Assembly (NCBI GenBank): GCA_019322895.1
Contig: JAHWHZ010000001.1
Span: forward strand, 459,528-523,527
Direction: 5' to 3'
Source: Candidatus Woesearchaeota archaeon
GTDB lineage: Archaea > Nanobdellota > Nanobdellia > Woesearchaeales > ARS49
Length of the DNA stretch: 64,000 bases
The notes below the pieces were generated by a model. It was not told where the DNA came from. It ran no database searches and worked only from the letters and a program-made list of their open reading frames with translations. A program made the translations under genes and the position numbers. Positions 7,950 through 51,700 of the stretch are shown in pieces; the first letter of the stretch is position 1; each line of letters opens with the position of its first letter.

Positions 7950-8801
7950 TTGCTTATGCTTGCTGTAACATCTTTGACTGCATATCTATTCTGTTCTAGA
8001 AAGCTTTTTCTTGAAAAAGTGATGGGATATTCTGAGATTCCAAAAGCTCTGCTTGTAAAAGGGGCAATAAAGCACAAGGTATTTGAAGAGATGGAGAAAT
8101 ATGAGGCAGATATTGTTTCTTCTTTTCAAAAAGGCGTCACAAAAGAGCAGATTCTTGAGAAATACACTTCTATTTATTCTGAGGTTCTTCGCAGGGCAAT
8201 TTTGAACAGCAGGAAGCAGCTGGCACTGGCAAAACTTCTTCCTGTCGCAGCATTCAAGCAGTTTCATCCTTTATTTATTAAAGAAGCTGAGGCAAGAACA
8301 GAGAGTATCTTTAACTTCATCAAGGAAAAAAATATTTATGGCTTGGAATTGTGGGAGACTCTCATCCCAAAAATAAAGTCAGAATACAAGATTTCTGCAG
8401 AAGAATTAGGCATATCAGGAAAGATTGATCAGGTATTGGTTTATCAGGACGGCGTGGTCCCTATTGAGCTAAAGACTGGAAAAGCCCCGAAAGAAGGCGC
8501 CTGGGAAAACCACAAGATCCAGCTTGCTGCTTATGCATTGCTGCTTGAAGACAGGTTTAACGTGCCGATTACGTCTGGCTACGTTAAATATATTGATGAG
8601 AATATTTCCAGGAGAATTGATATAAATCCTTTTCTTAAAGATCAGGTAAAGGATTTAATCAAGAAAGTCAGGGAGCTGCTTGATTCAAAAAAACTGCCTA
8701 AAAAATGCACTAACACAAATAAATGCGAAAAGTGTGGTCTGAAAAAGATATGTTACAGTGATGATATCGCCGAAAAAGCGCAACATTTAAATAATAAATG
8801 A
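7950..8801 (+). CDS. Cas4-like PD-(D/E)xK nuclease with Fe-S cysteine cluster (DUF83 family), stand-alone
   Basis: N-terminal YLFCSRKLF (Cas4/RecB-like YxxCxRK motif), a central ELKTGK/QLAAY nuclease core and C-terminal CTNTNKCEKCGLKKIC. TTG start at 7950 (ATG at 7956). No CRISPR array or cas genes in the window. Confidence 0.6.
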   Translation: MLMLAVTSLTAYLFCSRKLFLEKVMGYSEIPKALLVKGAIKHKVFEEMEKYEADIVSSFQKGVTKEQILEKYTSIYSEVLRRAILNSRKQLALAKLLPVAAFKQFHPLFIKEAEARTESIFNFIKEKNIYGLELWETLIPKIKSEYKISAEELGISGKIDQVLVYQDGVVPIELKTGKAPKEGAWENHKIQLAAYALLLEDRFNVPITSGYVKYIDENISRRIDINPFLKDQVKDLIKKVRELLDSKKLPKKCTNTNKCEKCGLKKICYSDDIAEKAQHLNNK

Positions 8802-9188: not shown

Positions 9189-10145
9189 ATGAATCAAAGT
9201 GTTATCTGGACAGAGAAATACAGGCCTTCTGTTTTTGAGGAGATAAAAGGCCAGAAAGAGATAGTATCCAAAGTTAAGGCTTTTGTTGAGCAGAAAAATC
9301 TTCCGCATCTATTGTTTGCAGGACCTGCAGGCATTGGCAAGAGCACGCTGGCATTAGTTACCGCCAGGCAGATGTTTGGCGAGGGATGGAAGCAGAATTT
9401 TCTTGAGCTTAATGCTTCTGATGAAAGAGGAATAGATGTTGTAAGGGTTAAGGTAAAGGATTTTGCAAGGACAAAGGCAATCGGCGATGTTCCTTTCAAG
9501 ATAATCTTTCTAGATGAATGTGATGCTTTGACAAGAGATGCACAGCAGGCCTTGAGGAGAACCATGGAGAATTATGCTTCTACCTGCAGATTTATTCTTG
9601 CGTGCAATTATTCTTCAAAGATAATTGACCCTATACAGTCAAGGTGCGCCATGTTCCGCTTCAGGCCTCTTGAAAAAGAGCACATGCTCGCGCTGGTTAA
9701 TTTTATTGTTGAAAAAGAGAAGCTGAAGGTTGATGATGATGCCAAATCTGCTTTGATTGAGGTCTCAGGAGGAGACTGCAGGAAATTAGAGAATGTTCTG
9801 CAGAGCTGTGCTTCTGTGACAGACAAGATCACGCACGAAGTTGTTTATTCCATGGCTTCGACTGCGCAGCCACAGGAAATCAAGGAATTATTGAGCATTG
9901 CAGTCAAAGGAGATTTTCTTGCGTCAAGAAAGCAGTTGTTGGATATCATGCTTCGCTATGGTCTTTCTGGCCTGGATGTCATAAAGCAGATACAGAAAGA
10001 GATATGGGAATTAGATATTGATGCCAGGCAAAAGGTTGCTTTAGTCGACAAGTGCGGAGAGATTGAGTTCAGGCTGGTTGAAGGCTCTGATGAATACCTG
10101 CAGTTAGAGGCATTGCTTGCTCAGATCTGTGCTGTCAAGAATTAG
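9189..10145 (+). CDS. rfcS: replication factor C small subunit
   Basis: Walker A GPAGIGKST, DEAD-box-like LDECD, SRC motif (SRCAMFRF) and a clamp-loader fold arrangement. Confidence 0.85.
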   Translation: MNQSVIWTEKYRPSVFEEIKGQKEIVSKVKAFVEQKNLPHLLFAGPAGIGKSTLALVTARQMFGEGWKQNFLELNASDERGIDVVRVKVKDFARTKAIGDVPFKIIFLDECDALTRDAQQALRRTMENYASTCRFILACNYSSKIIDPIQSRCAMFRFRPLEKEHMLALVNFIVEKEKLKVDDDAKSALIEVSGGDCRKLENVLQSCASVTDKITHEVVYSMASTAQPQEIKELLSIAVKGDFLASRKQLLDIMLRYGLSGLDVIKQIQKEIWELDIDARQKVALVDKCGEIEFRLVEGSDEYLQLEALLAQICAVKN

Positions 10146-11074
10146 TCTGCTAAAAGCCATTTATAATATTCTTTTGTCATGTTTGTATATTGTTTCTTCA
10201 CTTCGTCATGCCCAAGATCTATGTTTAAAGATAATCTTGTAAAATCCAGGACAGTCTCTCTTACAAGGCCAGACATCGGTTTATCATCATCTTGTTGGAT
10301 CTTTTCAGAAGCCGCATAAAATTCAAAAACAAGAGGTTTTTCACTGTCATATTTATCAGCATCAACTATGCATACTGCAATGCAGGGTTTTGCACCGTGC
10401 TGTGTTCTTGCATACTCGCGGTAATCCATCAGGCTCATGCCTTTAGCAGTTCTATGAGTATCTCTTAATTCTCTTAAAAGAGCAATGTCAAATCTATTAT
10501 CTTCAGTAACAGGTGCAATATGTATGTGTGCGTGCCCGGCATTTTGATATGTGTCGGGCATTCCTCTTTGATAAGTTGGTTTTTCTTTTCCATTTAATCT
10601 TGTTCCCCGAACATGGCCGTATCTGTCTTTTAAGACACCGTCTTCTTTGCCATAATCACTTGCTGTCTTTCCAATACCATTATTGGCCCATACAGCCACT
10701 TTTTTATAATCTGCATTCAGAAGCTTTTCAACAATAGTTTTCAGGCTTTTTTCCCTGTTTTCAAAGACAAGTTCTGCTAAAGGCGAAGGATCAAGCGCAT
10801 GGTCTGGCGCTGCTGCAAAAGCATTTTTATCCCTGAAAATACTTTCAATCTTGTCTTTTGTATCAAAATCTTCTGTTCTTAGTATTGAGGATTTTCCCCT
10901 CTTGCGCATTATCGGTCTTGAGATATAGAGAATATGAAGCATTGTTGCAATGCCTGCCATTGGAACTATGACTGCTTCTGGAAATTCATGTATGATATCC
11001 AGTCCAAAGCATTCATACCTGCCTTTGAAATTTTTTGGCAGGCAGAGTTTCCCGCAAACATTAAGCAAATGCAT
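10142..11074 (-). CDS. HIT-superfamily-like protein (HxHxHxx motif) with N-terminal extension, GalT/Apa2/DcpS-like architecture
   Basis: Central HAHIHIAP histidine-triad motif with about 120 aa downstream. The N-terminal 40-60 aa may be caller over-extension. Confidence 0.35.
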   Translation of the reverse strand: MHLLNVCGKLCLPKNFKGRYECFGLDIIHEFPEAVIVPMAGIATMLHILYISRPIMRKRGKSSILRTEDFDTKDKIESIFRDKNAFAAAPDHALDPSPLAELVFENREKSLKTIVEKLLNADYKKVAVWANNGIGKTASDYGKEDGVLKDRYGHVRGTRLNGKEKPTYQRGMPDTYQNAGHAHIHIAPVTEDNRFDIALLRELRDTHRTAKGMSLMDYREYARTQHGAKPCIAVCIVDADKYDSEKPLVFEFYAASEKIQQDDDKPMSGLVRETVLDFTRLSLNIDLGHDEVKKQYTNMTKEYYKWLLAD

Positions 11075-11122
11075 GTTTAAGAATAAGAGGGGATTCTATA
11101 AAAAGATTAGGAAAAAAAATAA

Positions 11123-12103
11123 TTATTCAGAAGCATTTCCTGCTTCTGTTGGTGTTTCTGGAGCAGTCGGACCTTCTCCAGAGCTTTTGACTGTTATCGT
11201 TGTCTGCTGGTATTCCTCATAATCATATTCTGCATCTATTGTGATCAGCTGCTCAAAGTCTGTTCTTGTGTCAACTGTCTGCGTGCAAGTGATTATCTTT
11301 GACCCGTCAAAAAGAGTTACGTATCCTTCTGCTGTTTTTCCTGAGGTCTCAAGTCCTGTGCAGCTCAGTCCTGGAAGGTTTGTATCAACTTTTATATAGA
11401 CGCTATCCTTGTTTTTTCTTTGTGTCTTGTCGCACAAGGTTCTTTTTGCAAACACGTCTCCTCCGCCGACATTCTTTACTTCAAAGCTGAATCCTATCTT
11501 GTTTCTTGCACGCGCGCTTTCCTTGAAATCAGAGAACTGTATCGGGCCTCCTGAATTAAATGCTGGTTTGGCGCCTGTGATTTCGCAGATTCCTTCTGGT
11601 GCAGGATTAAGTATGTTTTCGCGCACACAAATCTTGCTTACTGCTTTTGTTCCATATAGATAGCACACTTCTGCTCTTAATGGCAGGTCAATCTGCGTGC
11701 CTGCTATTGGGGATATATGGTTCAGTTCCTTGAATTCAACAAAGACAGGAGCTCCTGGAAGTATGTTGCCTTGGGCATCTTTCATTGTCTCTGGAAGGTC
11801 ATCTTCAGGGCTTGCTGTCAGCTGCTCTTCAAGCTTGCCAAACTCTGCAGGGTTTATTCCAGATATCTTTACCCGCACATCTTCTTTTTGTACAGGAACT
11901 TCGCCTTTGTTTTCAAGCTTTAGAATAATATCAAAAGGGTCTCTTCCGCCATCAAAGATCTCTGCCCTGAAATCAACAAATTCTGATACAACGCCTGTGG
12001 TGCCGCCGATAAAAGGCGATACAATCTCTATCTGTTCTCCGCCTTGGCACCCAATCACAAAAATTAACAGCATTATTATTGCAAAGAAGCTTATTTTTTT
12101 CAT
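11123..12103 (-). CDS. secreted lipoprotein, paralog 3 of a 3-member tandem family
   Basis: Signal peptide plus lipobox-like VIGC. Shared family motifs are ACYxYxT, CID, SGGQGAP, NVGGGDVF and C-terminal YGY. Acidic Thr/Pro-rich C-terminal tail. Confidence 0.6.
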   Translation of the reverse strand: MKKISFFAIIMLLIFVIGCQGGEQIEIVSPFIGGTTGVVSEFVDFRAEIFDGGRDPFDIILKLENKGEVPVQKEDVRVKISGINPAEFGKLEEQLTASPEDDLPETMKDAQGNILPGAPVFVEFKELNHISPIAGTQIDLPLRAEVCYLYGTKAVSKICVRENILNPAPEGICEITGAKPAFNSGGPIQFSDFKESARARNKIGFSFEVKNVGGGDVFAKRTLCDKTQRKNKDSVYIKVDTNLPGLSCTGLETSGKTAEGYVTLFDGSKIITCTQTVDTRTDFEQLITIDAEYDYEEYQQTTITVKSSGEGPTAPETPTEAGNASE

Positions 12104-12170
12104 TTTATCAATCCTCGTAAATTATAAAGAAATCTTTGCCTCTCAATTATATAAATTTTTCTATTATTAA

Positions 12171-13127
12171 TTAATATACGGAAACAATTTCTATGTCTTT
12201 AAATATGCTGTTTTTATAGCCGTATGCAAGTGTTATGCTCATCGGAGTTGTATATGCATCTTGTCCTCTTGTCATGAATTCGCAGAAAACTGTTCCTTTG
12301 CCATTTGTCAGCCTTATATGATTGTTGTCTAATGGCTTGCAGGTTGGCTTTATTGACATGCCTGATATCATAACATCCCTTAATTCAACATAATCAATCT
12401 CATCAAAGCCTAATCCTGCTGTAAAAGGGCTGCATTTCTGGAGATACTGCGCTCCTGACCTGAATACATCGCCTCCGCCTACATTACTGACATGTATCTT
12501 GAATCTTGTCCTGCCCGGGCTTGGCTCAACTTCTATTGTAGAAACTGAAATCGGCGCCCCCTGGCCTCCACTTAATGAGATTGATGTTGGAGTGCAGATT
12601 TTTGCTCTTGTGGTTGGCGAGTAAGGATCAGGATCGATGCATATCGGTGCTGTTGCAATTGTTTCATAAGCATAGCACGCTGTTGCAAGAAGCCGTACAG
12701 GATATTTGTCAATGTTTTTTGGAGCCAACGGAGCAATAGTTCCTTTGAATCCCACTACATCCAGCCCCCCTTCTGTAACGAATTGTGTCTTTCCTTCTAT
12801 GTAAGGTATGTTTTCCCCCCACTCAAGTATTCCTGTAATTATAGACGGGTCAAACCCTGAAAGGTATATCTTGTCTCCTGGGCCGCCGACAGTATATGCT
12901 CCTCTGTTTTCTATCTCAACTAGCGCACTGAACTGTTCTGTGTCAAACAGCCTGTTTGGTGGAAGGTTTGGTGCAAAATTAAGGTTAAGCCCTTGTGTTC
13001 CTGTCCTGTATTGTGTCATAAGACTTGTTTCTTTGTCAGGCGCTCTAGGAGCGCACGCGCTTATTAAAACTCCAAGAACCAATAATATGAGGATGATTTT
13101 CTTCATTTTTACTCTTGTTTGATTCAA
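12171..13127 (-). CDS. secreted lipoprotein, paralog 2
   Basis: Signal peptide (possible internal start MKKIILILL at 13106) and lipobox LISAC. Carries the same conserved motifs as its neighbours (ATACYAYETIATAPICIDPDP, SGGQGAPISV, NVGGGDVF, LAYGY). Confidence 0.6.
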   Translation of the reverse strand: MNQTRVKMKKIILILLVLGVLISACAPRAPDKETSLMTQYRTGTQGLNLNFAPNLPPNRLFDTEQFSALVEIENRGAYTVGGPGDKIYLSGFDPSIITGILEWGENIPYIEGKTQFVTEGGLDVVGFKGTIAPLAPKNIDKYPVRLLATACYAYETIATAPICIDPDPYSPTTRAKICTPTSISLSGGQGAPISVSTIEVEPSPGRTRFKIHVSNVGGGDVFRSGAQYLQKCSPFTAGLGFDEIDYVELRDVMISGMSIKPTCKPLDNNHIRLTNGKGTVFCEFMTRGQDAYTTPMSITLAYGYKNSIFKDIEIVSVY

Positions 13128-13143
13128 GTTTTTAAATACTTTT

Positions 13144-14064
13144 TTATTTTATTTCTATTTTCTTGATTTCAAGCCCTTTTACCATCCGGTCCATGTAGCC
13201 GTAATTTACCTCAATTGATAATGGCGCAAGGTATGTTCCTTCTTCCTTGTAAATTCCGCCTTCAAGTGTGCATACAATCCTTTGGTCTTTTGTTAGCTTG
13301 ATTTTTTCTGGCCTGCAGTTCAGCTCAACATCAGATAATGCTGCTCTTAATTCAACCTTGTTCCAGGTCTCTTCACCAAGTGGCTTGCCTGTACATGCAT
13401 CAAAAACCTTGTCTTTCACCATTGCCTGTCCTTTTCCTAAATTTTCAAGCTTGATTATGAACTCGGGCTGTATTCTTTCAGGATCCTCATGCACCAGCAT
13501 TTTAGGCTCTACAGATGTGACTGCCACAGGAGCGCCCTGCCCTCCTGAGAATGTTATTTTTTGTGTTTTACAGGGCTTTGTTCTTACAATGTTTGTTATG
13601 TCCGTATCAATGCACACAAGCGCAGTTGCTTCTGTCTTGTAGGGATAGCATGCGCTGGCAACTATTGCTGTCTCAAAGTGCTCGAATTGCGGAGGCAGCA
13701 TTCGTGCCTGTGCCCTGAAGCTTTTTGTTGTTTCAGTTCCTTCAGGATAAAAGACAGATTTTCCTGCTAAGTCAAACTTGTCATTGCTTTCTGAAGTAAA
13801 ATAAATCTGCTGCTCTTCATACCCTATTGAGATCATCCCATTTTGTATGTCTGCTGCTCCTTTGTTGTATATTTTTGGCATGATTTCAAAATAGCGCCCT
13901 TCATAGACTTCTGAAGGAGGCAGTTCAGGCAGGAATTCCATGACAACTCCTTGTGTTCCTTTGTGGATTTCAGGAACCTTTATTTCTTCTTTTTTTGTTT
14001 GCATGTACGTACAACTAGCTAAAATCGCAAGTATAATCATCATTGAAAAAATTATTTTTTTCAT
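13144..14064 (-). CDS. secreted lipoprotein, paralog 1
   Basis: Signal peptide plus ILASC lipobox. Motifs ASACYPYKTEATALVCIDTD, SGGQGAPVAV and VNYGY. Confidence 0.6.
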   Translation of the reverse strand: MKKIIFSMMIILAILASCTYMQTKKEEIKVPEIHKGTQGVVMEFLPELPPSEVYEGRYFEIMPKIYNKGAADIQNGMISIGYEEQQIYFTSESNDKFDLAGKSVFYPEGTETTKSFRAQARMLPPQFEHFETAIVASACYPYKTEATALVCIDTDITNIVRTKPCKTQKITFSGGQGAPVAVTSVEPKMLVHEDPERIQPEFIIKLENLGKGQAMVKDKVFDACTGKPLGEETWNKVELRAALSDVELNCRPEKIKLTKDQRIVCTLEGGIYKEEGTYLAPLSIEVNYGYMDRMVKGLEIKKIEIK

Positions 14065-15569
14065 GTTGTTGCTTCTTGTTTTTCTACTGTTATTGAGCGC
14101 TGTGTTGAATAACTGTAATCATATCTCGTGGTGACCTTTATGTTTCTGATTGATACAGGGTCCTCTCCCATTAAATCATCAAAGTCTGTTATTTTAGTAA
14201 ATGCCCTGAATGTGAAGCCAACAATGTCTTTTTCCTTGTTGACCTGGTCAAGCAGTTTCTTTGGAAGCAGATAAGCGGTTTCAACTCCGTCATCGCAGAA
14301 CTCTGCATCTTTTTCATCAAGTTCTTCGCATGGAGTTGCCTCGACTTCAATTCCATTTATGTTGTCTATTTCCATTCCTTTCGGAGTCAAAAGAATAAGG
14401 TATTCTATCTTTTTGAGCTCTCCTATCCACGCATTATCAATGGTTACACCGATTGTAGGTCCTTGCTCAGAGACTGTTGTATATGCTATCCCTACTGGCT
14501 GTGTTTCAACACCTGCTCCGACTCCAATCATGACAGGCCCTGCTGTGTAGATTGTTTTAGTCTGTTTTTGCGGGAAGTCAGCCAAGGGGTCGATGCCTTC
14601 TCTTCGGTACTCCCTTAACCTGTCTTTTTCAATCAAGTAAACACGTTTGTAAGCTCTTGTTGTGAATTCGAAGTTTGCAGCCAGCTTGAATACATAGCTT
14701 TTTGCTTTCAGGTCCTTGAATATGCAGTCAATTGCCTGTTCTTCTGTAGTGTAAACCTTGAATTCTTTTTTCGGGATGACTTGGTCTGCAGTTATCTTGT
14801 CTGCAGTGCACGTCAATTTGATATCCAGAGGATCTTCCATTGTTTCTGCTTTTAATGTTGAATAAACTGTTGCCGGCTCGCCTTCATAGAATGTCGGATG
14901 CGCTGCCTTCAGCGGCTCAATAAATACCCCGAGCATTTTCTTGGCGCCTTCGTCCACCTGGCCGGTATAATAGTCTCCCGACGCAATCTTGATGCTCCGC
15001 TCTACCTCTTTTTCAACAGTCTCTTTTATGCCTACAAGAGTATCCCAGACATGATAAGCTGCATCAACAGTTGCTCTTACTAGATATCTTATTGTTATTG
15101 CAGGCGAGATTGTGGGGATCGTGTATCCTTGCTGCCCTGCATATTCTTGTATCTGTGGCATGAATGAGAATGTGAGCAGCATGATCCAGAACAAAAGATA
15201 GATTGTGCTTATCCAGGGATATTCTTCTGAATGGAAAAACAGCAGATAGATGATCCACACTGGATTAAATACCATTATTATACCGGCAATTGCACTATAT
15301 TGTGCAAGAAGACTATACAGCAATGGCATGACAAGTGCGCTTAAGATAAAGCAGACTAATATCGGCTTCCAGTCATGATATTTTTGCTGGAGCCTGTATG
15401 CAATCACGGCATAAAGCGCAAAAAACAAGGCCCACGTGTATAAGTTGATTGCTCCTTTATAATAACGCGTGAACACGTCAAACAAATGCACTGCGCCCAC
15501 TATCAGGATAATTCCAATACCTAATGCTGTGCTTTGTATTTTTTCAGTGTCAACCATTTCATTTAGCAC
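14061..15569 (-). CDS. polytopic membrane protein with large extracytoplasmic C-terminal domain
   Basis: 502 aa with about 5 N-terminal TM helices and a roughly 330-aa soluble domain. The start overlaps the upstream gene by 11 nt and the stop overlaps the downstream start by 4 nt. Confidence 0.55.
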   Translation of the reverse strand: MLNEMVDTEKIQSTALGIGIILIVGAVHLFDVFTRYYKGAINLYTWALFFALYAVIAYRLQQKYHDWKPILVCFILSALVMPLLYSLLAQYSAIAGIIMVFNPVWIIYLLFFHSEEYPWISTIYLLFWIMLLTFSFMPQIQEYAGQQGYTIPTISPAITIRYLVRATVDAAYHVWDTLVGIKETVEKEVERSIKIASGDYYTGQVDEGAKKMLGVFIEPLKAAHPTFYEGEPATVYSTLKAETMEDPLDIKLTCTADKITADQVIPKKEFKVYTTEEQAIDCIFKDLKAKSYVFKLAANFEFTTRAYKRVYLIEKDRLREYRREGIDPLADFPQKQTKTIYTAGPVMIGVGAGVETQPVGIAYTTVSEQGPTIGVTIDNAWIGELKKIEYLILLTPKGMEIDNINGIEVEATPCEELDEKDAEFCDDGVETAYLLPKKLLDQVNKEKDIVGFTFRAFTKITDFDDLMGEDPVSIRNIKVTTRYDYSYSTQRSITVEKQEATT

Positions 15570-16725
15570 TTATCTCAAGTTTTACGATGTTGAGTTCTGT
15601 CAATGGCGTTAATTCCACATAATTGTTTCCTTCTTCAATTATGTTTGATATGTCTGCCCTGTACGTAGGAGTTCTCTGGTCTATCATGTATAATCTGCCA
15701 TTCACATTTAAGCGCGCATTTTTTAATTTATTGTCATCAATGAATTTTATTACCAGTTCTGCATCTTGTATGCCGTCTGCTATTTGTTCATAAAGCACGC
15801 TGTTAACATTGAAGTAATCCATGAAGCCTTTTGTAGGGTCTAATATTGTCTTTAGTCTTATCTGTTCAACAGACGCACTGCCAGATGACAGCATTATTTC
15901 AACCATATTCTTGCCTGCTTTAAGGTCTTCTTTGTAGATGTCTTTCCTGTTCAGGCTTTCGCAGTTAGGCACGCCTGAGAATATGCTCTTGTCATTTATG
16001 CTTATTGTCATTGTGCCTACAGATAGTTGGTCGCATAATGGATAAAAGTCCATCCAGGCCCTTTCAAGATTGTTGTGCTCAACCTGGCTTATTGGCAGGT
16101 CAATCATTCCAGAAAGCTTGCTTTTGTCAAGCACATCTCCGATTATCTTGACATCTGTCAATTCGTATTTCCTTGTAGGTATGCCGAATCCTTCTGCCTG
16201 GAAGCTTATTGTGTTCTTTTTCTGAAGGTAATTCTTGCTTATTGGTATTGGCGGAGGGTTTGTCTGTCTTATCTCTCCTTCAAACACATCCATATCATTG
16301 AATCGTACTTTTAATGCGCCTTCGTGAACTGGCGCTGCAAAGCTGACATACACATTTTGCGTGTTTGCAGGGTCTGCTATGCCGAATGTGTGAGCTTTTC
16401 GGTCTGTCTTGTAGATTGTTTTCTTTATTGTGAACGGATTTATTGTGGTCAGTATCTCTGCACCGCGAGATTCGTGCAAGTAAAGGTTTGGAAGATAGTG
16501 GTCAAACTCATTTTCAGCCACAAATTCAATTTTTCCTATCGGTGCTTGCAGCAATACTTTTTTTTCAATAACTTCTCCGGTCTCTGAAAGATTTTCATCT
16601 GCAAAAAGTGCAGCTCTTTCTCCTGGAGGTAAAAATATTATATAGAAAACTAACAGCAAGGCTATTATTCCTATGAGCGAGGCTGCAGTGGCGCCTACTG
16701 GTGCTCCATCAGCTCTTTTTTTCAT
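15559..16725 (-). CDS. signal-anchored secreted protein, first gene of surface operon
   Basis: 388 aa with one N-terminal hydrophobic helix (AASLIGIIALLLVFYIIFL) and no recognisable domain. Confidence 0.55.
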   Translation of the reverse strand: MKKRADGAPVGATAASLIGIIALLLVFYIIFLPPGERAALFADENLSETGEVIEKKVLLQAPIGKIEFVAENEFDHYLPNLYLHESRGAEILTTINPFTIKKTIYKTDRKAHTFGIADPANTQNVYVSFAAPVHEGALKVRFNDMDVFEGEIRQTNPPPIPISKNYLQKKNTISFQAEGFGIPTRKYELTDVKIIGDVLDKSKLSGMIDLPISQVEHNNLERAWMDFYPLCDQLSVGTMTISINDKSIFSGVPNCESLNRKDIYKEDLKAGKNMVEIMLSSGSASVEQIRLKTILDPTKGFMDYFNVNSVLYEQIADGIQDAELVIKFIDDNKLKNARLNVNGRLYMIDQRTPTYRADISNIIEEGNNYVELTPLTELNIVKLEISAK

Positions 16726-16834
16726 TGAATCACCCTTTTTTCTTTTGTTAGTATATTACTAACTAGAGTATATATAAATGTTTTTCTTTTTATAGGGGTA
16801 AGTTTTAAATGCTGATGTGGTTTTTATTTGTGTT

Positions 16835-29635: not shown

Positions 29636-32600
29636 ATGGGAAGCAAACATACATTACTAGTTATTTTAGTGTTAATTCTGTTTTCTAGCACTGTTTATGC
29701 TGTTGATTTTGAGCTTGCATTTGGGTATCCAATGTATAATCTCTCTTATAGCAAACAGTTTTGGGGTGTTGCTGACACAACAGGCCCTTATTTTATCTTG
29801 GAAAATACAGGAATCTGGACTATTCATCCTACTGAAATCGAAGTGGAGGGTTTATTAGAGGTAGACCCGCCTTTTATTGCTGTAGAAGCCAGAGGGCACT
29901 ATACAGACAGATATGCTTGTGAAGGAAACAGGGGCGGCGGAGGATGTAATTCCCATTTGAAAGTTTTATTAGAATATAATCAAAAAGAGGTATGGGACAA
30001 TGTCCGGCGCGCAGACAATCCTCCTAACTGGTATGAAGATCCTATCAATGTTATTTCAGATTATGTAGAATATAAGAGAGTTTCTGGAAGAAAGGAGTGT
30101 ACTAATAGAGATCCTGATGTGAATTGCTGGCCTGACCAGGTAATTCAATTTTATTATGCTCCAATCATTGTAAAGGATTTTAACAATGTATTTGTTGAAG
30201 ATGAGACAAAATCTCTTGGAACTGTTGGAGAGATAATGGGAGAGGATTTTCCAGATGGTGTTAATGCAACTGTTTACACTGGAATTTTTTCAGAGAATAA
30301 ACAGGTTCTTTTCTGGATTGCTGATTATCCTGATTCTTCTGCAGATTATCCTGCGGAGCCTGAAAAAAATACTGCAGACAAGACAGATTATATACTTGCA
30401 TGCGCGGATTTTGACCAAAATAATAAATGCGATCACTTACAGTCTACTGTCCAGACCTGCTGGGATGAAGATGGTGCCTGGTTTGGCAGGAATTATCATG
30501 AAGGCCAGTTATATGGTGGAGGATTTGTGGAAGGATGTTGTGTTGATAATGACCCTCAAAAAATTGCGCGCCTGAATGCAGCAGGAATTGAAGCTTTTCA
30601 CTGCGGATATTATGATCACAGGCTCAAGGCATTGTGCGGTTATGATGAGCAGGGAAATCATCACTGGGCTTCCTTAGAGCAGGCAGGCAGTATTGCAGAT
30701 TTAAGAGGCTGTCCTGGTTTTAATATTGTATCAAATGGAAGAAGATTTTATGGATGTCGCGCCGGAAATTTAGGGTTTGCTACATTTGATACAAATGTTT
30801 CTGTTCAAAGGACATGGTATGACTGGGAAGGCAAGTGGCATGCAAAAGCTGAAAATGAAGACTTGTTTGAAGGCGCATTATATACTAATGCCAATGATTG
30901 GCTTAGAGATTATTTTGATGACAATGGAAAAACTGATTTATGTAGATTAACTGAGAGCATGTGCAATGCGGAGAATGCATATGAAAGCGCGTATAAGTGC
31001 GACTTTACTGATGATCCTAATACCGAAAGATATCAGGTTAATAGTGATGAAGCAACTGTTTATTGGGACTTATCTACAGATGACTGGCCTGATTTGTTTT
31101 GTCCATATAGGATAAGCATATATCCTCTGGAACACCAAACGAAGAGTATCTACAGTGCTTCTGGCACACACACTTATCTTTGTGATTCTACCACTGGAAA
31201 CTTGTTTGAATGTACAGGAGACCTGCCTTCTTTTACAAATCCTTATGAAAATCCTGGTGCAATTGCTGAGACAGGCAGGACAACTGTTGAGCTGGTTGGT
31301 GCAGGCGGCTGTCCTCCAGGAATATTGTCTTACTGGACTTTTGATGATACTGTGCAGGATTCTAAAGGAGATTTCAATGGATTGCTTTCTGGCGCAACTT
31401 ATGCAGAAGGCATTGTTAATAATGCCCTATTGTTTGATGGCAATGACAAGGTGACTGTTTCAGGAAATCTAACAACCCCTGCAAGTAATTTTACGATTGA
31501 GTCATGGATTTATCCTGAGCAGGTTGATGAAGGCACTTATTCAATATTAGAAAAGCCTGGCTCTTACAAGCTTGAGATAGTTGATAGAAGACTTAAGGCA
31601 GGAGTCAATATTGATGGAACCTGGGAAAACTTTGGACATGCATTAGTAAGCAAGAATGACTGGGCTCACATCGCTTTGATTTTTAATGGCAACACTGCGA
31701 GACTTTTCAAGAATGGCGACCCTGTCGGTCATGCTGACAAGACAGGAAGCATAACAAAAACAATCAATCCTTTGGTTATTGGCCAGAATTTCATAGGCAA
31801 GATTGATGAAGTCGCTCTTTATGATGAATCGCTTTCCTATACTCTCTTTAAGGCGCATAAGGATGCTGAAAGAAACTATTGCAATCTTTCCACCGGATTT
31901 ACACAAATAGAATATTGTGCATCAGATGGCTGGTGGACGTATGATTTAGATACAAAAGATGAAAGCTCTTGTGAAAAATCTGGATTCAAGTGGACAGGAC
32001 ATTTGTGCTGCTCAGAAGACAATGATGAAAATGAATTTTACAATGATTGGGATTCTCCTGCACTGCCTTTTGATTATAGCAGGAAATCTGCAAATGTAGA
32101 TTTATTGCCAGATTCAGATAATCCGACATTTATCACATTAAAACCTAGAAAATCAAGAATTACTATTTACGGTCCTGCAAGGTTTGAGATGCGCGTGTAT
32201 TCTTCTGAGAAATTCGGAACAACATATGATAGATGTGAAGAGATTGAAGATAAAACACGCATCATCGAAATAAAATCAGGAGAATCAAGAACATTCAGGG
32301 CAGAACAAGGGCCTGCAGAAGGAGGAGACAATTGCATTTACAGGGAGATAGAGCTTGAGTCAAAGCCATTTGAGGCTCTTGGCGGATGCTGGAACAAGAC
32401 TTTTGTGCCGATTGGGCATTTTGCAGAGCCGCACGTCATTAATTATCACGGCAAGTTTTACAGCTGCGGCATACCTGCATTAGATTTGATTGATACGCGT
32501 AATGGCAGCACGCTTGTTAAGTCTGTCAGTCCTACATGCAGTCACATAATGCTTCATGCAAGAGGGCCGTTACTGCACGCTGTCTGCAATCCTGGAAAGG

Positions 32601-32782
32601 ACTGGCAGTTCACAAACAATTCTGATGCAACAATGCAAAAAAGTGTTGCATGGGATATTGCAGGAACAAATGCAACTGAAATAGGGTGTTGCGGTCCTGA
32701 TGAGTGCTGGAATGGTTTTAATTGCGTTAAAATCGGCAGGTTCCAGGAAATAGATTCAGTCTCATATTTTTGCGGGGAATAA
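29636..32782 (+). CDS. large secreted Cys-rich surface protein with concanavalin-A-like/LamG domain
   Basis: 1048 aa with a signal peptide. The LamG_3-like segment is LSYWTFDDT...NGLLSGATY...LFDG...DWAHIALIFNGNTARLFKNGDPVG...KIDEVALYD. More than 50 Cys. Confidence 0.65.
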   Translation: MGSKHTLLVILVLILFSSTVYAVDFELAFGYPMYNLSYSKQFWGVADTTGPYFILENTGIWTIHPTEIEVEGLLEVDPPFIAVEARGHYTDRYACEGNRGGGGCNSHLKVLLEYNQKEVWDNVRRADNPPNWYEDPINVISDYVEYKRVSGRKECTNRDPDVNCWPDQVIQFYYAPIIVKDFNNVFVEDETKSLGTVGEIMGEDFPDGVNATVYTGIFSENKQVLFWIADYPDSSADYPAEPEKNTADKTDYILACADFDQNNKCDHLQSTVQTCWDEDGAWFGRNYHEGQLYGGGFVEGCCVDNDPQKIARLNAAGIEAFHCGYYDHRLKALCGYDEQGNHHWASLEQAGSIADLRGCPGFNIVSNGRRFYGCRAGNLGFATFDTNVSVQRTWYDWEGKWHAKAENEDLFEGALYTNANDWLRDYFDDNGKTDLCRLTESMCNAENAYESAYKCDFTDDPNTERYQVNSDEATVYWDLSTDDWPDLFCPYRISIYPLEHQTKSIYSASGTHTYLCDSTTGNLFECTGDLPSFTNPYENPGAIAETGRTTVELVGAGGCPPGILSYWTFDDTVQDSKGDFNGLLSGATYAEGIVNNALLFDGNDKVTVSGNLTTPASNFTIESWIYPEQVDEGTYSILEKPGSYKLEIVDRRLKAGVNIDGTWENFGHALVSKNDWAHIALIFNGNTARLFKNGDPVGHADKTGSITKTINPLVIGQNFIGKIDEVALYDESLSYTLFKAHKDAERNYCNLSTGFTQIEYCASDGWWTYDLDTKDESSCEKSGFKWTGHLCCSEDNDENEFYNDWDSPALPFDYSRKSANVDLLPDSDNPTFITLKPRKSRITIYGPARFEMRVYSSEKFGTTYDRCEEIEDKTRIIEIKSGESRTFRAEQGPAEGGDNCIYREIELESKPFEALGGCWNKTFVPIGHFAEPHVINYHGKFYSCGIPALDLIDTRNGSTLVKSVSPTCSHIMLHARGPLLHAVCNPGKDWQFTNNSDATMQKSVAWDIAGTNATEIGCCGPDECWNGFNCVKIGRFQEIDSVSYFCGE

Positions 32783-32797
32783 AAAAGAGGTGATTAG

Positions 32798-33922
32798 TTG
32801 AAAAAACCATTGATTTGGTTATGTATAATCATTTTGCTAGTTTTTGCTGTTTTTGCAGCAGACTGGTATGGGCCTCTTAGCTTAAAGCAAAATTGGGACA
32901 GGACAGAATCTGGCGTGTGTCCGAACATAAAGCAGTGTCTTGTGAGTGCAAGCCCGCAGGCAAAAGCCGAATATAATGACCAGCCAGGAAAATATTTTAC
33001 AGACCCTCCTGGCCCCAAATGCATTGCAGACAAGCAGCATATTCTTGATTATTACTGCGAAGAAGGCAGCTGGACAACAAGAACAAAACTTATTGCCTTG
33101 ACTTTGATGGATTTTGCAAGCACGCAGTCAAACAAGTTTGCCTTGTTCTGCGGAAATTACAAGGACGCTCTTAATCATTACCAGTATCTTGTGGGTTCTA
33201 ACACAGATACAAAATTAGTTGAAGACTTTCTGAAAGATTACAGATGCCCGCAATACAATACAACGACAAAAGAAGCATGCGTGAACAACATCTGTGTCTT
33301 GAAATACCAGGATGGAGTTGCAATAGGCACTAGCTTGAACACAAAAATAAATGATGACGAGCATTCGTTCCTGCTTGCATTGAATCATTCAAGTGATGCC
33401 TGCGACAATATAAATTCAGGCGAAAATTTTCAAAGATGCACAGACTGGAACAAAAGAGGAAGAGCATTTTATAACCCCGGCATAAATTCATTTATTTACT
33501 TGTCTACAGATGATACTCTTCCTTCTGCAAAATATTCTGCAGCATATAATGCATTCATCAAGAATAACCTGGAGTCAATAGAAGATTATGCAGCTAATAT
33601 CCAGGATTCAAATCTTAGTTTTGTCAAGAATACAAGATTATTCAATAATTTTTATTATTCCCAGCAAGGAAGCGGAAAAATAATTTTTGCATTTTTAGAA
33701 GAGGGTCAGGAACTTTTTGATTATGATTATGTCGGTGCAAGATACAAGGGTATTGACTTAGGTAATAATCCTTGCAGTGATGTGTTTGAGCAGTATGATG
33801 CCTGGTCATTTTGCGAAGAGACAAGCGGAGACATAAAGATAATCGCAAAGCAGACCCCTGACAAAAAAAGCCCGCTGGTTGAAGCATGGGCAGATTTGTC
33901 AGGAAAATTAAGGCCAAAATGA
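32798..33922 (+). CDS. secreted Cys-rich protein
   Basis: 374 aa. The TTG start at 32798 is preceded by AGAGGTGA at 5-nt spacing. Signal peptide MKKPLIWLCIIILLVFAVFA. Confidence 0.55.
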   Translation: MKKPLIWLCIIILLVFAVFAADWYGPLSLKQNWDRTESGVCPNIKQCLVSASPQAKAEYNDQPGKYFTDPPGPKCIADKQHILDYYCEEGSWTTRTKLIALTLMDFASTQSNKFALFCGNYKDALNHYQYLVGSNTDTKLVEDFLKDYRCPQYNTTTKEACVNNICVLKYQDGVAIGTSLNTKINDDEHSFLLALNHSSDACDNINSGENFQRCTDWNKRGRAFYNPGINSFIYLSTDDTLPSAKYSAAYNAFIKNNLESIEDYAANIQDSNLSFVKNTRLFNNFYYSQQGSGKIIFAFLEEGQELFDYDYVGARYKGIDLGNNPCSDVFEQYDAWSFCEETSGDIKIIAKQTPDKKSPLVEAWADLSGKLRPK

Positions 33923-35196
33923 GAAACGCACAGATAACATTGTTTTTGATTATTGGAATCGTTATTTTGCTGGGGGCTGGATTGTTGATTTACATGGTAT
34001 CAATAACACCTGAAAAAAAAGGAGAAGAAACAGTGGTTGGGCAGACTTTAAGGCAGCAGGCAGTGCAGCCTGTCAAGGATTACATAACTACTTGTCTTGA
34101 TATTGTTTCTTCAGATGCCCTTGAATTAGTTGGCAAGCAGGGCGGAAGATTGTATCAAGAGCAGGGAAGCATTATTCCTAATCCTTCTGTAGATAAGCTT
34201 GGAATTATTTTCATGGATTATGATGACTCGAAGCTATCGTATTCGATAGTTCCTCCAAAAGGCAATGTTGGCGCCTTGTTTTTTTCTGATGTTCCAGAAT
34301 ATCCTTGGCCCAGCTTCCCATATACAGCCAATGGAAACACCTCAGATCTTGGTTACTTTGGATTATCAAGGCTGCCGGCATTGTACAAGAATTTCAGCAC
34401 AGACTCTATACAACAGCAATTAGAGACATACATCTCAAACAATATCGCAAAATGCACTTTGTGGGATAATAAGTTCCCTGGCTTTAAGATTACAACAGGA
34501 ACACCTATGACAACAATGATTATTGCAGAGAATCTTACACACTTGCGGCAGGAAGAATATATTTCATTTGTGCTTGACTGGCCTGTTACAATAACAGAAG
34601 AAAGCAGTGGTGCCAGGATTACTTTAGATAGGTTCACGGTCAATTATCCTGTCGCATTTGGCAGGATGTATTATACAATCAAGAGCATAGTAGAAGCTGA
34701 AATATCTAACATGAGTTATGAGCCGATTACAACAGATGCTTATTTTATCACAATAAACAATAATGCTTACAACAAGGATGACATAATTGTTTACCAGGAC
34801 AAGAAATACAGTCTCAAGGGGGTTCCTTATGAATTCAGGATTGCAAGAAAGAACCGGGCTCCTGCACTTCATTTGATTGATCAGAAAGAGATAGACAAGT
34901 TTGCATATTGCGTGGATATTGTGAAGTTCTCTTTGCAGGGAAACAAGTTGTATGCAAGTCCTGACCTGGAAGACGGCGATCCTTTTCCATTAAACAGTAC
35001 AGCAATTGATCCAGACAATGATGTGATTTCCTTTAAGCTCAAGCCAACTACGCCAAAAGTGGATTCATATGCAGTTGCTTTGTACAAGGATAATCCTGCA
35101 AAAGGAGGATTGCTTTTCAAGGTCTATGCAGATGACGGCGAGCTTGAAGATTACCAGCAGATAAGGATAATTCCTAAAGGATGTGCAGAAGATTGA
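33919..35196 (+). CDS. membrane-anchored protein with class III (prepilin-like) signal-peptide-type N-terminus
   Basis: The start is set at ATG 33919 (MRNAQITLFLIIGIVILLGAGLL), which overlaps the upstream stop as ATGA. The tracker's start is 33886. Confidence 0.5.
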   Translation: MRNAQITLFLIIGIVILLGAGLLIYMVSITPEKKGEETVVGQTLRQQAVQPVKDYITTCLDIVSSDALELVGKQGGRLYQEQGSIIPNPSVDKLGIIFMDYDDSKLSYSIVPPKGNVGALFFSDVPEYPWPSFPYTANGNTSDLGYFGLSRLPALYKNFSTDSIQQQLETYISNNIAKCTLWDNKFPGFKITTGTPMTTMIIAENLTHLRQEEYISFVLDWPVTITEESSGARITLDRFTVNYPVAFGRMYYTIKSIVEAEISNMSYEPITTDAYFITINNNAYNKDDIIVYQDKKYSLKGVPYEFRIARKNRAPALHLIDQKEIDKFAYCVDIVKFSLQGNKLYASPDLEDGDPFPLNSTAIDPDNDVISFKLKPTTPKVDSYAVALYKDNPAKGGLLFKVYADDGELEDYQQIRIIPKGCAED

Positions 35197-48025: not shown

Positions 48026-48179
48026 GATGCAAAACAAGAAAGCAATGGAAATACCTGGATGGATTTATGTTGTAGGCTTGATAATCGGCTTGCTGGTCAT
48101 ATTGTTGATAATCTGGATTTCTGCAAAATCCGGCCAAAAGGCAACTGGTTTGCTGGATACCATCAAAGGATTACTATGA
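48012..48179 (+). CDS. micro-ORF (55 aa) with class III signal-peptide-like N-terminus
   Basis: MSLIKMQNKKA|MEIPGWIYVVGLIIGLLVILLIIW. Translationally coupled at both ends (14-nt overlap upstream, ATGA downstream). Confidence 0.3.
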   Translation: MSLIKMQNKKAMEIPGWIYVVGLIIGLLVILLIIWISAKSGQKATGLLDTIKGLL

Positions 48180-51100: not shown

Positions 51101-51700
51101 CTTGTAGAAACAAGAGCTCCTGAGCTTACATTAAGAAAAACTCCTTTGTCTTATGAAGAATTCAAAAAAGAGTTTGATAAGGTTATTGCAAGTGGTTATT
51201 ATGAGAATATTGCATTTTCAGTTTATCATAAACTGGGAGCGATTAGGAAAGGCGAAGGTATGTATTTCATGGATATGTATGACCCAAATGGATTCTTAGA
51301 TATTGCTACAAGACACACTTACTTAAATTACAATGTTGTTGAAGACAGCAAGATTGACAAAAAGAAGATTGCAAAGCTTTGTAATACTAGATTAGATGAG
51401 CGGGAGCCACACATAAAAAGTATGCTCGCAACAAAAGTATCTATTGCTTGTTTTAATGCCCAGCCAAGCATAGAAGGATATCCTGATTATAATAATGGCC
51501 ATAATTATTGCTTCAGCAGCGAGCATGCTGGAATTGAGACTGCCAAAGATATTGCCACAGGCATTTCTATTGCAATTGACTTTGGTGCAGGAATCATAAG
51601 TGGCGGCTTGGCAGAAGCGCCTGTAGCAGCTCTTACTGGCCTTGGTTCTGCATGGTTTGCTCATGAAATGGATAAAAAGAAATTCTGGCCAAATCATTAA
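48176..51700 (+). CDS. giant (1175 aa) pilin-like surface protein with Lys/Glu-rich repeat
   Basis: The start is set at ATG 48176 (MKKRG|VSGAFMWVSIVIGLIVILSIG). EKKKKEAEEKKAAEEKKKAEEKK is encoded by an approximately 85-nt pure polypurine tract. The remainder has no recognisable domain. Confidence 0.55.
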   Translation: MKKRGVSGAFMWVSIVIGLIVILSIGTVLYQGRDYLSEKIFGKKYISAEEKEFVPYEVELEGEVKTADDSMKALVCAFNSLAIEKKGWLIEGVCPEGFYSKEVEEKKKKEAEEKKAAEEKKKAEEKKTEPTPAPTGAMVSITGAATKEDCDGALYGQTCVECRESEFGMKTITLPDSEYDATKMLAKAAVQCWNDFKGPKGNKGEKNILCNKVVIPGTAPGWVITKEEFRERLEKFEGEVGSDLAGLGTGTQNVDWKFGEAIVLNIKQEFYICANDAYDANPFDADEIFFTRNLNDCEVETRGLAEKEFTCEIKTFELPQEIGSDISLFNWAEEFINKYNDPEYLAYYESFPRGEEAAWHLEEGDFIVDVILFGAVMNTLPVLGKGVRQAGGLFRRIFTKKILVEVPEDIVKKASKKTITTVLGKTGKEIGTELGEQTIKELTDMFGKGMERQLKSQILYDNILKEVGEDAAETARQAFLSKYSIYKGMGKTDDQIATLLKKEIPEAIGKTPDEVSGLIKNVDDVIKKSLAELSESARNKQTARQFFTKYLLKEGGESLNKEAMENILATALTKETYDKLGPEAAEQIMQRSLSYTDEIIDVTKGTDELLKTQSLIGRTYGAVVGQVNKEFNLFANILSQPNKDTLSRFLLGVTPKEIGEAVAQKGGALGAIGAAAARYNPIHISIGTGKIVPIPRPLLVRSLVGTAYKTTRTGIRFTSDAAGAAWHSRAARYTLAYLLATQIAESDAKNDKLGYNEENTLILQKPYDFDAKAKYFLSDETNKYYLNLHKYQYGDARFFLASPCKADLTIPKTDCDCNIYSGDYILKSNNQPFDPASVKFKSDDAIHTVYKYDELSKDGKRAAMDYCLVKDQEFGVLCNIFVMKDPEAYEKFTKYVYKNVYSPAIDFMQKYKVDEEKIADIIERKEGDVSLTIGHIISDAGEELRPHYEFGAFCFFAEGGIGPCSVNIPGALTEMLVETRAPELTLRKTPLSYEEFKKEFDKVIASGYYENIAFSVYHKLGAIRKGEGMYFMDMYDPNGFLDIATRHTYLNYNVVEDSKIDKKKIAKLCNTRLDEREPHIKSMLATKVSIACFNAQPSIEGYPDYNNGHNYCFSSEHAGIETAKDIATGISIAIDFGAGIISGGLAEAPVAALTGLGSAWFAHEMDKKKFWPNH

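What the first reader, a model, noticed from the sequence alone, without database searches (positions are those of the whole stretch)
11123..16725. Five-gene minus-strand operon: signal-anchored protein, polytopic membrane protein and three tandem paralogous lipoproteins of unknown family
All five genes are tightly packed, with 4- and 11-nt overlaps at the top. The three lipoproteins (326, 318 and 306 aa) share signature blocks (ACY-Y-T-A-x-CID, SGGQGAP, NVGGGDVF, C-terminal YGY) but are otherwise less than 30% identical, so the triplication is old. Each has a lipobox-like Cys after the signal peptide. I recognise no known domain. Together with the upstream membrane component this looks like a dedicated envelope or surface-layer assembly of a small-genome archaeon.
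Basis: seen in the sequence. Interest (0 to 1): 0.55.

Follow-up and report, generated by a model that had tools for sequence, protein, structure and literature searches.

The report
Woesearchaeal five-protein surface complex operon
Five tightly packed genes of a tiny-genome archaeon (Woesearchaeota) encode an uncharacterised membrane-anchored surface complex, and in many relatives its central subunit carries interchangeable enzymes that cut bacterial cell walls, so it is probably how these archaea hold on to or attack bacteria.

Summary
Five co-directional minus-strand genes (11123-16725) encode a signal-anchored protein (A), a five-helix membrane protein with a large ectodomain (M) and three paralogous lipobox proteins (L1-L3, 22-30% identical). 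No protein matches Pfam, NCBIfam, PHROGs or PDB sequences. AlphaFold models (pLDDT 92 and 81) show only generic tandem Ig-like beta-sandwiches. The window comes from a Woesearchaeota MAG. The order A-M-L-L-L is kept in 53 of 81 loci, all from Woesearchaeota/Nanoarchaeia, usually beside Pelota, TrmB and PheRS. Each lipoprotein position is its own orthologous group, so the triplication is ancient and the copies are non-redundant.

New here: the M family has 1186 representative clusters. About 20% of the sampled members carry a peptidoglycan hydrolase after the conserved core. The classes are unrelated: SLT, GH73/FlgJ-like, Amidase_2, Amidase_3, NlpC/P60 and M23. No other enzyme type was found. 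The window's M has no such module.

Best reading (inferred): a Woesearchaeales-specific surface platform that engages bacterial cell wall. The window holds its bare, non-catalytic form. A purely structural envelope role is not excluded.

The parts
15559..16725 (-). g1 = 'A' subunit, 388 aa. It has a basic N-terminus (MKKR), one N-terminal TM anchor (about aa 14-36, with the conserved FYIxFLPPxER boundary motif) and an ectodomain of about 350 aa with 2 conserved Cys.
   Evidence: ORF. TM. 38 homologs, all Woesearchaeota hypothetical proteins. Alignment A4. No Pfam, NCBIfam or PDB match. Present upstream of M in 53+ loci.
14061..15569 (-). g2 = 'M' subunit, 502 aa (498 aa from the ATG at 15557). 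It has about 5 TM helices (aa 11-140), a long helix (aa 156-196), the invariant SGDYYTGxVD loop, then two beta-sandwich domains (aa about 210-314 and 339-496). It carries no enzymatic module in this genome.
13144..14064 (-). g3 = lipoprotein L1, 306 aa. Signal peptide with lipobox LASC (Cys18), then two beta-sandwich domains and 6 further Cys.
   Evidence: Position-1 orthologous group in 53 loci.
12171..13127 (-). g4 = lipoprotein L2, 318 aa from TTG (more likely 311 aa from the ATG at 13106). Lipobox ISAC (Cys25). It is the best conserved of the three paralogs.
11123..12103 (-). g5 = lipoprotein L3, 326 aa. Lipobox VIGC (Cys19). It is the most divergent paralog and has a Pro/Thr/Glu-rich C-terminal tail.
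   Evidence: Position-3 orthologous group.
16771..16778 (-). TTTATATA, a candidate archaeal TATA box about 50 nt upstream of the g1 ATG. GGGTGA (16730-16735) is a Shine-Dalgarno-like site 5 nt before the ATG.
   Evidence: Read directly from the sequence. Not tested further.
12148..12155 (-). Second TTTATATA in the 67-nt g4-g5 spacer, a possible internal promoter for g5.
   Evidence: Read directly from the sequence. Not tested. In other lineages the cluster is split elsewhere, between L1 and L2.
11112..11119 (-). Run of eight T starting 4 nt after the g5 stop codon, a candidate archaeal oligo-T terminator that ends the unit.
   Evidence: Read directly from the sequence. The next gene (10142-11074) is conserved only in two close relatives.

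Best explanation
The five genes encode the subunits of one membrane-anchored extracellular complex specific to Woesearchaeales-type DPANN archaea. Translationally coupled genes give a type-II signal-anchored protein (A) and a polytopic protein (M). M's two Ig-like domains sit on a long helix above a five-helix bundle. Three ancient, non-interchangeable lipid-anchored paralogs (L1-L3) each carry two disulfide-rich Ig-like domains.

The complex is proposed to be a docking platform that engages the cell wall of bacteria. The conserved M core and its partners would provide anchoring and targeting. In roughly one lineage in five, M also carries a swappable peptidoglycan-cleaving module at its outward-facing C-terminus. 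In the window's organism M is the bare platform with no catalytic module. Here the complex would act as an adhesion or docking device, with any wall cleavage supplied in trans or absent.

Shown: the genes, their paralogy, membrane anchoring signals, predicted folds, conserved synteny, taxonomic restriction and the hydrolase fusions in relatives. Inferred: that the five products form one complex, that the core binds cell wall, and that the target is a bacterial host or prey.
For: 1. One unit. The gaps are -11, -4 and +16 nt. The order A-M-L-L-L is kept in 53 of 81 loci, down to about 33-35% identity for M and L2. The exceptions are truncated contigs, divergent M genes or a split between L1 and L2.
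2. Extracellular location. The lipobox Cys is invariant and present in 94% of 159 members. Each L has six further Cys. A has an N-terminal anchor and M a TM bundle. Lipoproteins and the lipidation enzyme AliA are reported in DPANN (PMC12462473).
3. Non-redundant paralogs. For each position, all 530 of the top-10 neighbours from other loci come from the same position.
4. Adhesin-like folds. The L2 model has pLDDT 92 and the M ectodomain about 90. Only tandem Ig-like sandwiches match: cadherins, MSCRAMM adhesins, RbmA and A2M MG domains.
5. Link to murein. 12 of about 66 M genes in GTDB loci carry SLT-like or GH73 modules. The GH73 type is closest to FlgJ (E=5e-11). The SLT motifs align with E. 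coli Slt70. Among 78 long representatives there are 21 SLT (best E 2e-31), 2 Amidase_2, 1 Amidase_3, 3 NlpC/P60, 2 M23 and 1 Glucosaminidase. The only other domains are FN3/PKD-type spacers, plus single hits to DUF4112 and DUF6442. No other enzyme class appears. In every architecture resolved, the hydrolase lies C-terminal to the core.
6. Same locus. An M23-bearing M lies in the same Pelota/TrmB/PheRS slot. GH73 occurs in two separate core lineages whose nearest neighbours carry SLT or nothing.
7. Literature. Large murein transglycosylases of Woesearchaeota are already read as tools against bacteria (PMC8204110, PMC9723730, PMC12352652).
Against: The window's own M has no hydrolase module. No SLT- or GH73-like ORF occurs elsewhere in the 64-kb window. 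The function here is therefore extrapolated from relatives. About half of the top 146 M representatives have almost no C-terminal extension (59 have under 30 aa, and 68 have under 100 aa), so the core must have a hydrolase-independent role.

No recognisable cell-wall-binding domain (LysM, SPOR, PG_binding, SH3b) was found in any subunit. The folds are generic. Complex formation rests on synteny and gene coupling only, because no multimer prediction could be run. The A subunit was not modelled. No host is known for this organism.
Confidence: 0.5

Rival explanations
1. It is a structural envelope or S-layer-like assembly. The three lipoproteins, with M and A, form the archaeon's own surface lattice or its membrane anchor. 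Exo-enzymes such as murein hydrolases are hung on this abundant scaffold in some lineages merely for display.
For: The cluster is near-universal in the sampled Woesearchaeota and sits in a housekeeping neighbourhood (Pelota, TrmB, PheRS, RFC). The subunits have tandem Ig-like domains and lipid or TM anchors, as many archaeal surface proteins do. About half of the M proteins have no enzyme.
Against: No similarity to any known S-layer family. If M were only a display anchor, other exo-enzymes would be expected, yet every enzymatic fusion found is a peptidoglycan hydrolase. The subunits are small (about 300 aa), and the design (five different chains, one of them polytopic) is unlike known S-layers. 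That last point rests on general knowledge and was not tested here.
Confidence: 0.25
2. It is a scavenging or uptake system. The TM bundle of M is a channel or permease for wall-derived fragments and the lipoproteins are substrate-capture proteins. The fused hydrolases generate the substrate, in analogy to permease-lytic-transglycosylase coupling.
For: M has a conserved TM bundle with invariant polar and aromatic residues (D31, Y53, Y124). Long forms have 8-9 TM helices. DPANN are auxotrophic scavengers (PMC9723730). An abstract listed reports coupling of AmpG1 import to lytic transglycosylase activity in Acinetobacter.
Against: The window's M has only about five TM helices and no match to any transporter family. 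The best PDB sequence hits have E>0.05. No ATPase or energising partner lies in the cluster. The lipoproteins are Ig-like sandwiches, not periplasmic-binding-protein folds.
Confidence: 0.1
3. It is a cell-cell fusion or bridging device related to class II fusogens (fusexin/HAP2), used to open cytoplasmic bridges to a host.
Against: The superpositions have rmsd values mostly of 4-17 A over about 110-145 residues and sit among hundreds of generic Ig-like hits of equal score. No three-domain fusogen architecture and no C-terminal TM is present. A fusion loop was not examined. There is no sequence similarity.
Confidence: 0.04
4. It is an autolysin or morphogenesis complex that remodels a murein-like wall made by the archaeon itself.
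For: Fusions cover glycan, amide and peptide bonds of peptidoglycan, as in bacterial wall-remodelling sets. The lipoprotein partners recall bacterial hydrolase regulators (general knowledge).
Against: Archaea, including DPANN, are not known to make murein (established knowledge, restated in PMC8204110, and PMC12352652). No Mur or PBP-like gene is annotated within +/-10 kb. The rest of the genome was not examined.
Confidence: 0.04

Closest known systems
Modular peptidoglycan hydrolases (endolysin/autolysin architecture: a swappable catalytic domain plus a conserved targeting domain), including the 'large murein transglycosylase' proteins reported in Woesearchaeota/Pacearchaeota (Castelle 2021 fam00969; Vigneron 2022)
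   Same: In relatives the M protein has a conserved non-catalytic part joined to interchangeable SLT, GH73, amidase, NlpC/P60 or M23 modules. Public annotations call them 'transglycosylase SLT domain-containing protein'.
   Different: The conserved part is an unannotated polytopic-membrane plus double-Ig core, not a known wall-binding domain. It is always encoded with A and, where contigs allow, with three lipoproteins. The window's member has no catalytic module at all, so it is not itself a hydrolase.
Dedicated wall-drilling enzymes of bacterial envelope machines (FlgJ of the flagellar rod; VirB1/EtgA-type SLT proteins of type IV and type III secretion)
   Same: The same two enzyme classes (GH73 closest to FlgJ; SLT) are attached to a multi-subunit membrane assembly.
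   Different: No homology of A, M core or L to any secretion, pilus or flagellar component. There is no ATPase. The wall to be breached would belong to another cell, not to the producer.
Tandem Ig-like surface adhesins (MSCRAMM Ace/CNA, RbmA, cadherin repeats, CARDB-type domains)
   Same: They are the best structural matches of both models, with two consecutive beta-sandwich domains on the cell surface.
Archaeal lipobox lipoproteins (AliA/AliB pathway, Haloferax volcanii)
   Same: L1-L3 have a basic n-region, a hydrophobic core and [LVI][ASTVI][GAS]C with an invariant Cys. DPANN are predicted to be rich in lipoproteins (PMC12462473).
   Different: Lipidation has not been shown for any Woesearchaeal protein. 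The mature domains have no relatives among characterised lipoproteins.

Membership tests
Lipobox lipoproteins (Sec signal peptide plus lipobox) | N-terminal basic residues, a hydrophobic h-region and [LVI][ASTVI][GAS]-Cys | tested here: met
   g3 has LASC, g4 ISAC and g5 VIGC. The Cys is invariant in 67 sequences. The pattern is present in 150 of 159 members.
Lipobox lipoproteins (Sec signal peptide plus lipobox) | Covalent lipid on the Cys, and a lipidation enzyme (AliA/arCOG02177) in the genome | not testable with these tools
   Only 64 kb of the genome is available. AliA is reported in DPANN with gaps (PMC12462473).
SLT / GH23 lytic transglycosylase | SLT domain with the catalytic Glu-Ser, GxMQ and AYNxG motifs | tested here: not met
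   The window's g2 and the other four proteins have no SLT hit. The domain is present only in relatives of g2.
GH73 glucosaminidase (FlgJ-like) | PF01832 domain | tested here: not met
   Absent from the window proteins. Present in the M orthologs of L065, L072 and L076 (E 2e-17 to 8e-21).
Archaeal S-layer proteins | Homology to a known S-layer family, or a demonstrated lattice | tested here: inconclusive
   No homology. Lattice formation cannot be tested computationally here.
Class II fusogens (fusexin / HAP2) | Three-domain beta architecture with a fusion loop and C-terminal TM; a whole-ectodomain structural match | tested here: not met
PapD-like chaperone (chaperone-usher pili) | Two-domain PapD fold plus usher and pilin partners | tested here: not met
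Type IV filament (class III signal peptide) proteins, considered for g1 | Conserved prepilin-peptidase cleavage motif before the hydrophobic segment, with an ATPase and platform nearby | tested here: inconclusive
   The Gly before the hydrophobic segment is not among the conserved columns of A4. No ATPase or platform gene lies in the neighbourhood. No dedicated predictor was available.

The most novel reading that the evidence does not exclude
The A-M-L1-L2-L3 cluster is the conserved core of a previously unrecognised host-contact organelle of Woesearchaeales. It would be a five-subunit surface machine that docks onto bacterial cell walls and carries lineage-specific, interchangeable murein-cutting 'warheads'. 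That would imply that this very large and widespread DPANN order is ancestrally specialised on bacterial (not archaeal) partners or prey, and would supply a genetic marker for that lifestyle.
Probability: 0.3. Interest if true: 0.85.

Novelty: categorically new. Interest (0 to 1): 0.62.

Why it matters
Woesearchaeota are among the most abundant and diverse uncultivated archaea, and neither their hosts nor their attachment mechanisms are known. Earlier genome surveys noted scattered 'large murein transglycosylases' and a block of lineage-specific hypothetical families. They did not connect the two.

This analysis shows that those hydrolases are decorations on a conserved membrane protein. That protein belongs to a fixed five-gene cluster found across the sampled members of the lineage, including genomes (like this one) with no hydrolase at all. 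This gives concrete, testable candidates for the contact apparatus: five small proteins that can be expressed, localised and used as bait. It also gives a marker to predict which DPANN interact with bacteria. If the cluster turns out to be only an envelope scaffold, it would still be the first defined surface architecture for this order.

Tried and rejected
1. Profile-profile comparison of the three families (L vs M, L vs A, M vs A) gave no relationship, with probability below 3%. The secondary-structure layouts of the L and M ectodomains look alike, and both end in a Y-x-Y hairpin. Homology therefore remains possible but unproven. Model coordinates could not be superposed with the available tools.
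2. PDB sequence searches with the L, M and A profiles found nothing significant. The SLT-like extension profile also found nothing in PDB. The SLT call therefore rests on Pfam and on hhalign against E. coli Slt70.
5. PHROGs gave no viral relatives.
6. The 310-aa gene downstream (g6) was tested as a sixth member. It was rejected because it is conserved only in two close relatives and is separated by an oligo-T run.
7. A search for stand-alone SLT/GH73-like ORFs in the window and in all locus flanks found none.
8. A weak 'DMT family transporter' name on one M ortholog and weak 7TMR-HD and MnhG hits were dismissed as hydrophobic-segment noise, far below thresholds.
9. The sigma-70 promoter/terminator scanner was not used because the organism is an archaeon. 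TATA-like and oligo-T elements were read by eye.
Full report
**1. The observation.**
Region 11123-16725 holds five co-directional minus-strand ORFs exactly as described.

| Gene | Coordinates | Length |
|---|---|---|
| g1 (A) | 15559-16725 | 388 aa |
| g2 (M) | 14061-15569 | 502 aa |
| g3 (L1) | 13144-14064 | 306 aa |
| g4 (L2) | 12171-13127 | 318 aa |
| g5 (L3) | 11123-12103 | 326 aa |

The spacings are -11, -4, +16 and +67 nt. Public gene calls on an identical contig start g2 four codons later (498 aa) and g4 at the internal ATG (311 aa).

The three lipoproteins are true paralogs. BLASTP gives g4-g3 E=5e-37 at 29% identity, g5-g4 E=1e-12 and g5-g3 E=2e-8. The quoted signature blocks exist, each exact in two of the three copies.

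Each lipoprotein starts MKK-hydrophobic-[LASC/ISAC/VIGC] and has six more cysteines. g1 has a single N-terminal anchor. g2 has about five TM helices and then a large ectodomain.

A TTTATATA box lies about 50 nt upstream of g1, with a GGGTGA before the ATG. A second TTTATATA lies before g5, and a T8 run follows the g5 stop. These were read by eye and not tested.

**2. Origin and distribution.**
Proteins 100% identical to g1 and g2 are annotated as hypothetical proteins of a Candidatus Woesearchaeota MAG, on a contig of 705,286 bp. The neighbours are RFC small subunit, Pelota, a TrmB-type regulator and PheRS.

All named homologs of g4 (301 hits), g2 and g1 are Woesearchaeota hypothetical proteins with no Pfam domain. 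The exceptions are one g2 ortholog named 'DMT family transporter' and one g2 homolog with an FN3-like domain.

A scan of one genome per GTDB species with the lipoprotein alignment confirmed 111 loci. The 80 kept are all Woesearchaeota/Nanoarchaeia MAGs, some under a bulk-submission 'uncultured Methanosarcinales' title.

I searched the six-frame ORFs of these loci with HMMs of the three families. The order A-M-L-L-L appeared in 53 of 81 sources. It holds even at 34% identity of M, and is often still next to Pelota, TrmB and PheRS.

The exceptions fall into three groups: contig ends, M genes too divergent for the profile (L073, L077, L080), and a split between L1 and L2 (L030, L056, L045, L055, L057). 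The 310-aa gene downstream of g5 is conserved in only two close relatives and is not part of the unit.

**3. The triplication.**
In the 53 complete loci, the ten nearest neighbours from other loci of every L protein come from the same position: 530 of 530 for each of the three positions. L1, L2 and L3 are therefore three orthologous groups that predate the radiation of these lineages. They are kept separately, as expected for non-interchangeable subunits.

**4. What the proteins look like.**
There is no significant hit in Pfam, NCBIfam, PHROGs or PDB sequences for any of the five. Profile-profile comparison finds no relationship among the three families.

**5. The functional lead: what is fused to M in relatives.**
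M genes in the GTDB loci range from 1.5 to 3.7 kb. In the long forms the family core is followed by a C-terminal extension. Twelve of about 66 M genes carry a peptidoglycan-hydrolase module there.

- **SLT-like modules (9 loci).** They are above Pfam's gathering score in L066 and L074 and sub-threshold in five others. The catalytic Glu and the G-x-MQ-x-N motif are invariant, and an AYNGWGC-type motif is in the consensus. hhalign places these motifs on the ES, GLMQI and NIxIG motifs of E. coli Slt70 (E=6e-5).
- **GH73 glucosaminidase modules (3 loci).** E-values are 2e-17 to 8e-21. The closest solved relatives are FlgJ (E=5e-11).

These modules occur nowhere else in the loci or in the window.

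An exhaustive HMMER search of 1.84 billion representative proteins with the M alignment found 1186 clusters at E of 1e-3 or better, 654 of them at 1e-30 or better. Of the 146 top representatives that reach the end of the core, 78 have a C-terminal extension of at least 100 aa. Pfam on those 78 gave the following counts.

| Pfam family | Members | Best E-value |
|---|---|---|
| SLT | 21 | 1.9e-31 |
| NlpC/P60 | 3 | 2.1e-14 |
| Amidase_2 | 2 | 1.1e-29 |
| Peptidase_M23 | 2 | 4.1e-17 |
| Amidase_3 | 1 | 5.6e-20 |
| Glucosaminidase | 1 | 2.3e-8 |
| Lysozyme_like | 1 | 2.7e-5 |
| SLT_2 | 1 | 2.8e-4 |

The only other domains found were FN3/Pur_ac_phosph_N and PKD modules, plus single hits to two domains of unknown function. 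No nuclease, lipase, general protease or other glycosidase appeared. In every architecture resolved, the hydrolase lies C-terminal to the core.

NCBI and IMG name these proteins 'transglycosylase SLT domain-containing protein [Candidatus Woesearchaeota archaeon]' or 'murein DD-endopeptidase MepM/NlpD'. An M23-bearing member sits in the same Pelota/TrmB/PheRS | A-M slot as the window's g2. GH73 occurs in two separate core lineages whose nearest neighbours carry SLT or nothing. Both points indicate repeated gain or exchange of modules on a constant scaffold.

**6. Interpretation.**
Six unrelated enzyme classes, together cutting the glycan, amide and peptide bonds of murein, have been recruited to the same position of the same protein. 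No other enzyme type was recruited there. This is a strong guilt-by-fusion argument that the M core works at bacterial peptidoglycan.

Archaea do not make murein (established knowledge, restated in PMC8204110 and PMC12352652). The wall in question should therefore belong to bacteria.

The literature already reads the 'large murein transglycosylases' of Woesearchaeota and Pacearchaeota as tools for attachment to or attack on bacteria. It also lists a module of 51 lineage-specific unknown families (PMC8204110, PMC9723730, PMC10936187, PMC12352652). In the papers I could search, I found no description of the conserved core or of the five-gene cluster.

My best explanation is that A, M and L1-L3 form one extracellular, membrane-anchored docking platform for bacterial cell wall. 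The window shows its bare, non-catalytic version. The steps 'one complex', 'core binds wall' and 'bacterial partner' are inferences.

**7. Rivals.**
- **Purely structural envelope scaffold.** It remains plausible, at about 0.25. About half of all M proteins lack an enzyme, and the cluster is near-universal and sits among housekeeping genes.
- **Uptake system.** It is less likely: there are few TM helices, no transporter similarity, no ATPase, and the L fold is unlike binding proteins.
- **Autolysin role.** It contradicts the absence of murein in archaea.

**8. Verdict.**
All five families are unassigned, and the architecture has no described counterpart, so I rate it categorically new. The caveat is that the function is inferred from relatives. 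Interest is moderate to high. It converts a vague idea (that some Woesearchaeota may attack bacteria) into a defined five-protein candidate apparatus with clear experiments.

Noticed in passing
window 29636-39851 (+) and 48059-51700 (+): A run of very large ORFs. One of 1048 aa has a ConA-like lectin/Laminin_G_3 domain (E=3e-19). Two of 374 and 436 aa have no Pfam hit. One of 1556 aa has Big_13, Big_3_3 and Y_Y_Y-like Ig domains. A separate 1213-aa ORF also has no Pfam hit. These are probably further surface or adhesion proteins of the same organism.
   Followed up: partly
window 10142-11074 (-): A 310-aa ORF directly downstream of g5 on the same strand. It has no family hit and is conserved only in two close relatives (L004, L005). 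It is separated from g5 by an oligo-T run, so it looks like a lineage-specific add-on rather than a sixth subunit.
   Followed up: yes
L060:4624-6150 (third lipoprotein of that locus): This L3 ortholog carries a 189-aa C-terminal extension. It has a Pro/Thr linker and three Cys-rich repeats of about 55 aa (CPGG..C..SRE.L..CSG.W.Y..N.QY..WC....GESR.YCY.C) of unknown family. In the same locus M carries an SLT-like module.
   Followed up: no
L030, L056, L045, L055, L057: In several lineages the cluster is split, or interrupted by inserted genes, between L1 and L2. This gives an A-M-L1 block and an L2-L3 block. In the window, A, M and L1 are the most tightly coupled genes (-11 and -4 nt), and a TATA-like box precedes g5.
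   Followed up: partly
L019, L021, L029, L064-L068, L074, L079 (M genes): Many M orthologs also have N-terminal extensions that add TM helices, up to 8-9 in total against about 5 in the window. Single representatives hit the membrane families DUF4112 and DUF6442. The meaning is unknown.
   Followed up: no
window 7950-8801 (+) region; L082:9253-10098: A Cas4/PD-(D/E)xK-type nuclease gene (Csa1, Cas_Cas4, PDDEXK_1 hits) sits near the RFC gene. No CRISPR-Cas genes are annotated within the +/-10 kb shown.
   Followed up: no
record titles of L003, L006, L012 and others: Many MAG contigs that clearly carry this Woesearchaeal cluster are deposited under the organism name 'uncultured Methanosarcinales archaeon' (bulk TPA assemblies). 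This looks like a mislabel.
   Followed up: no
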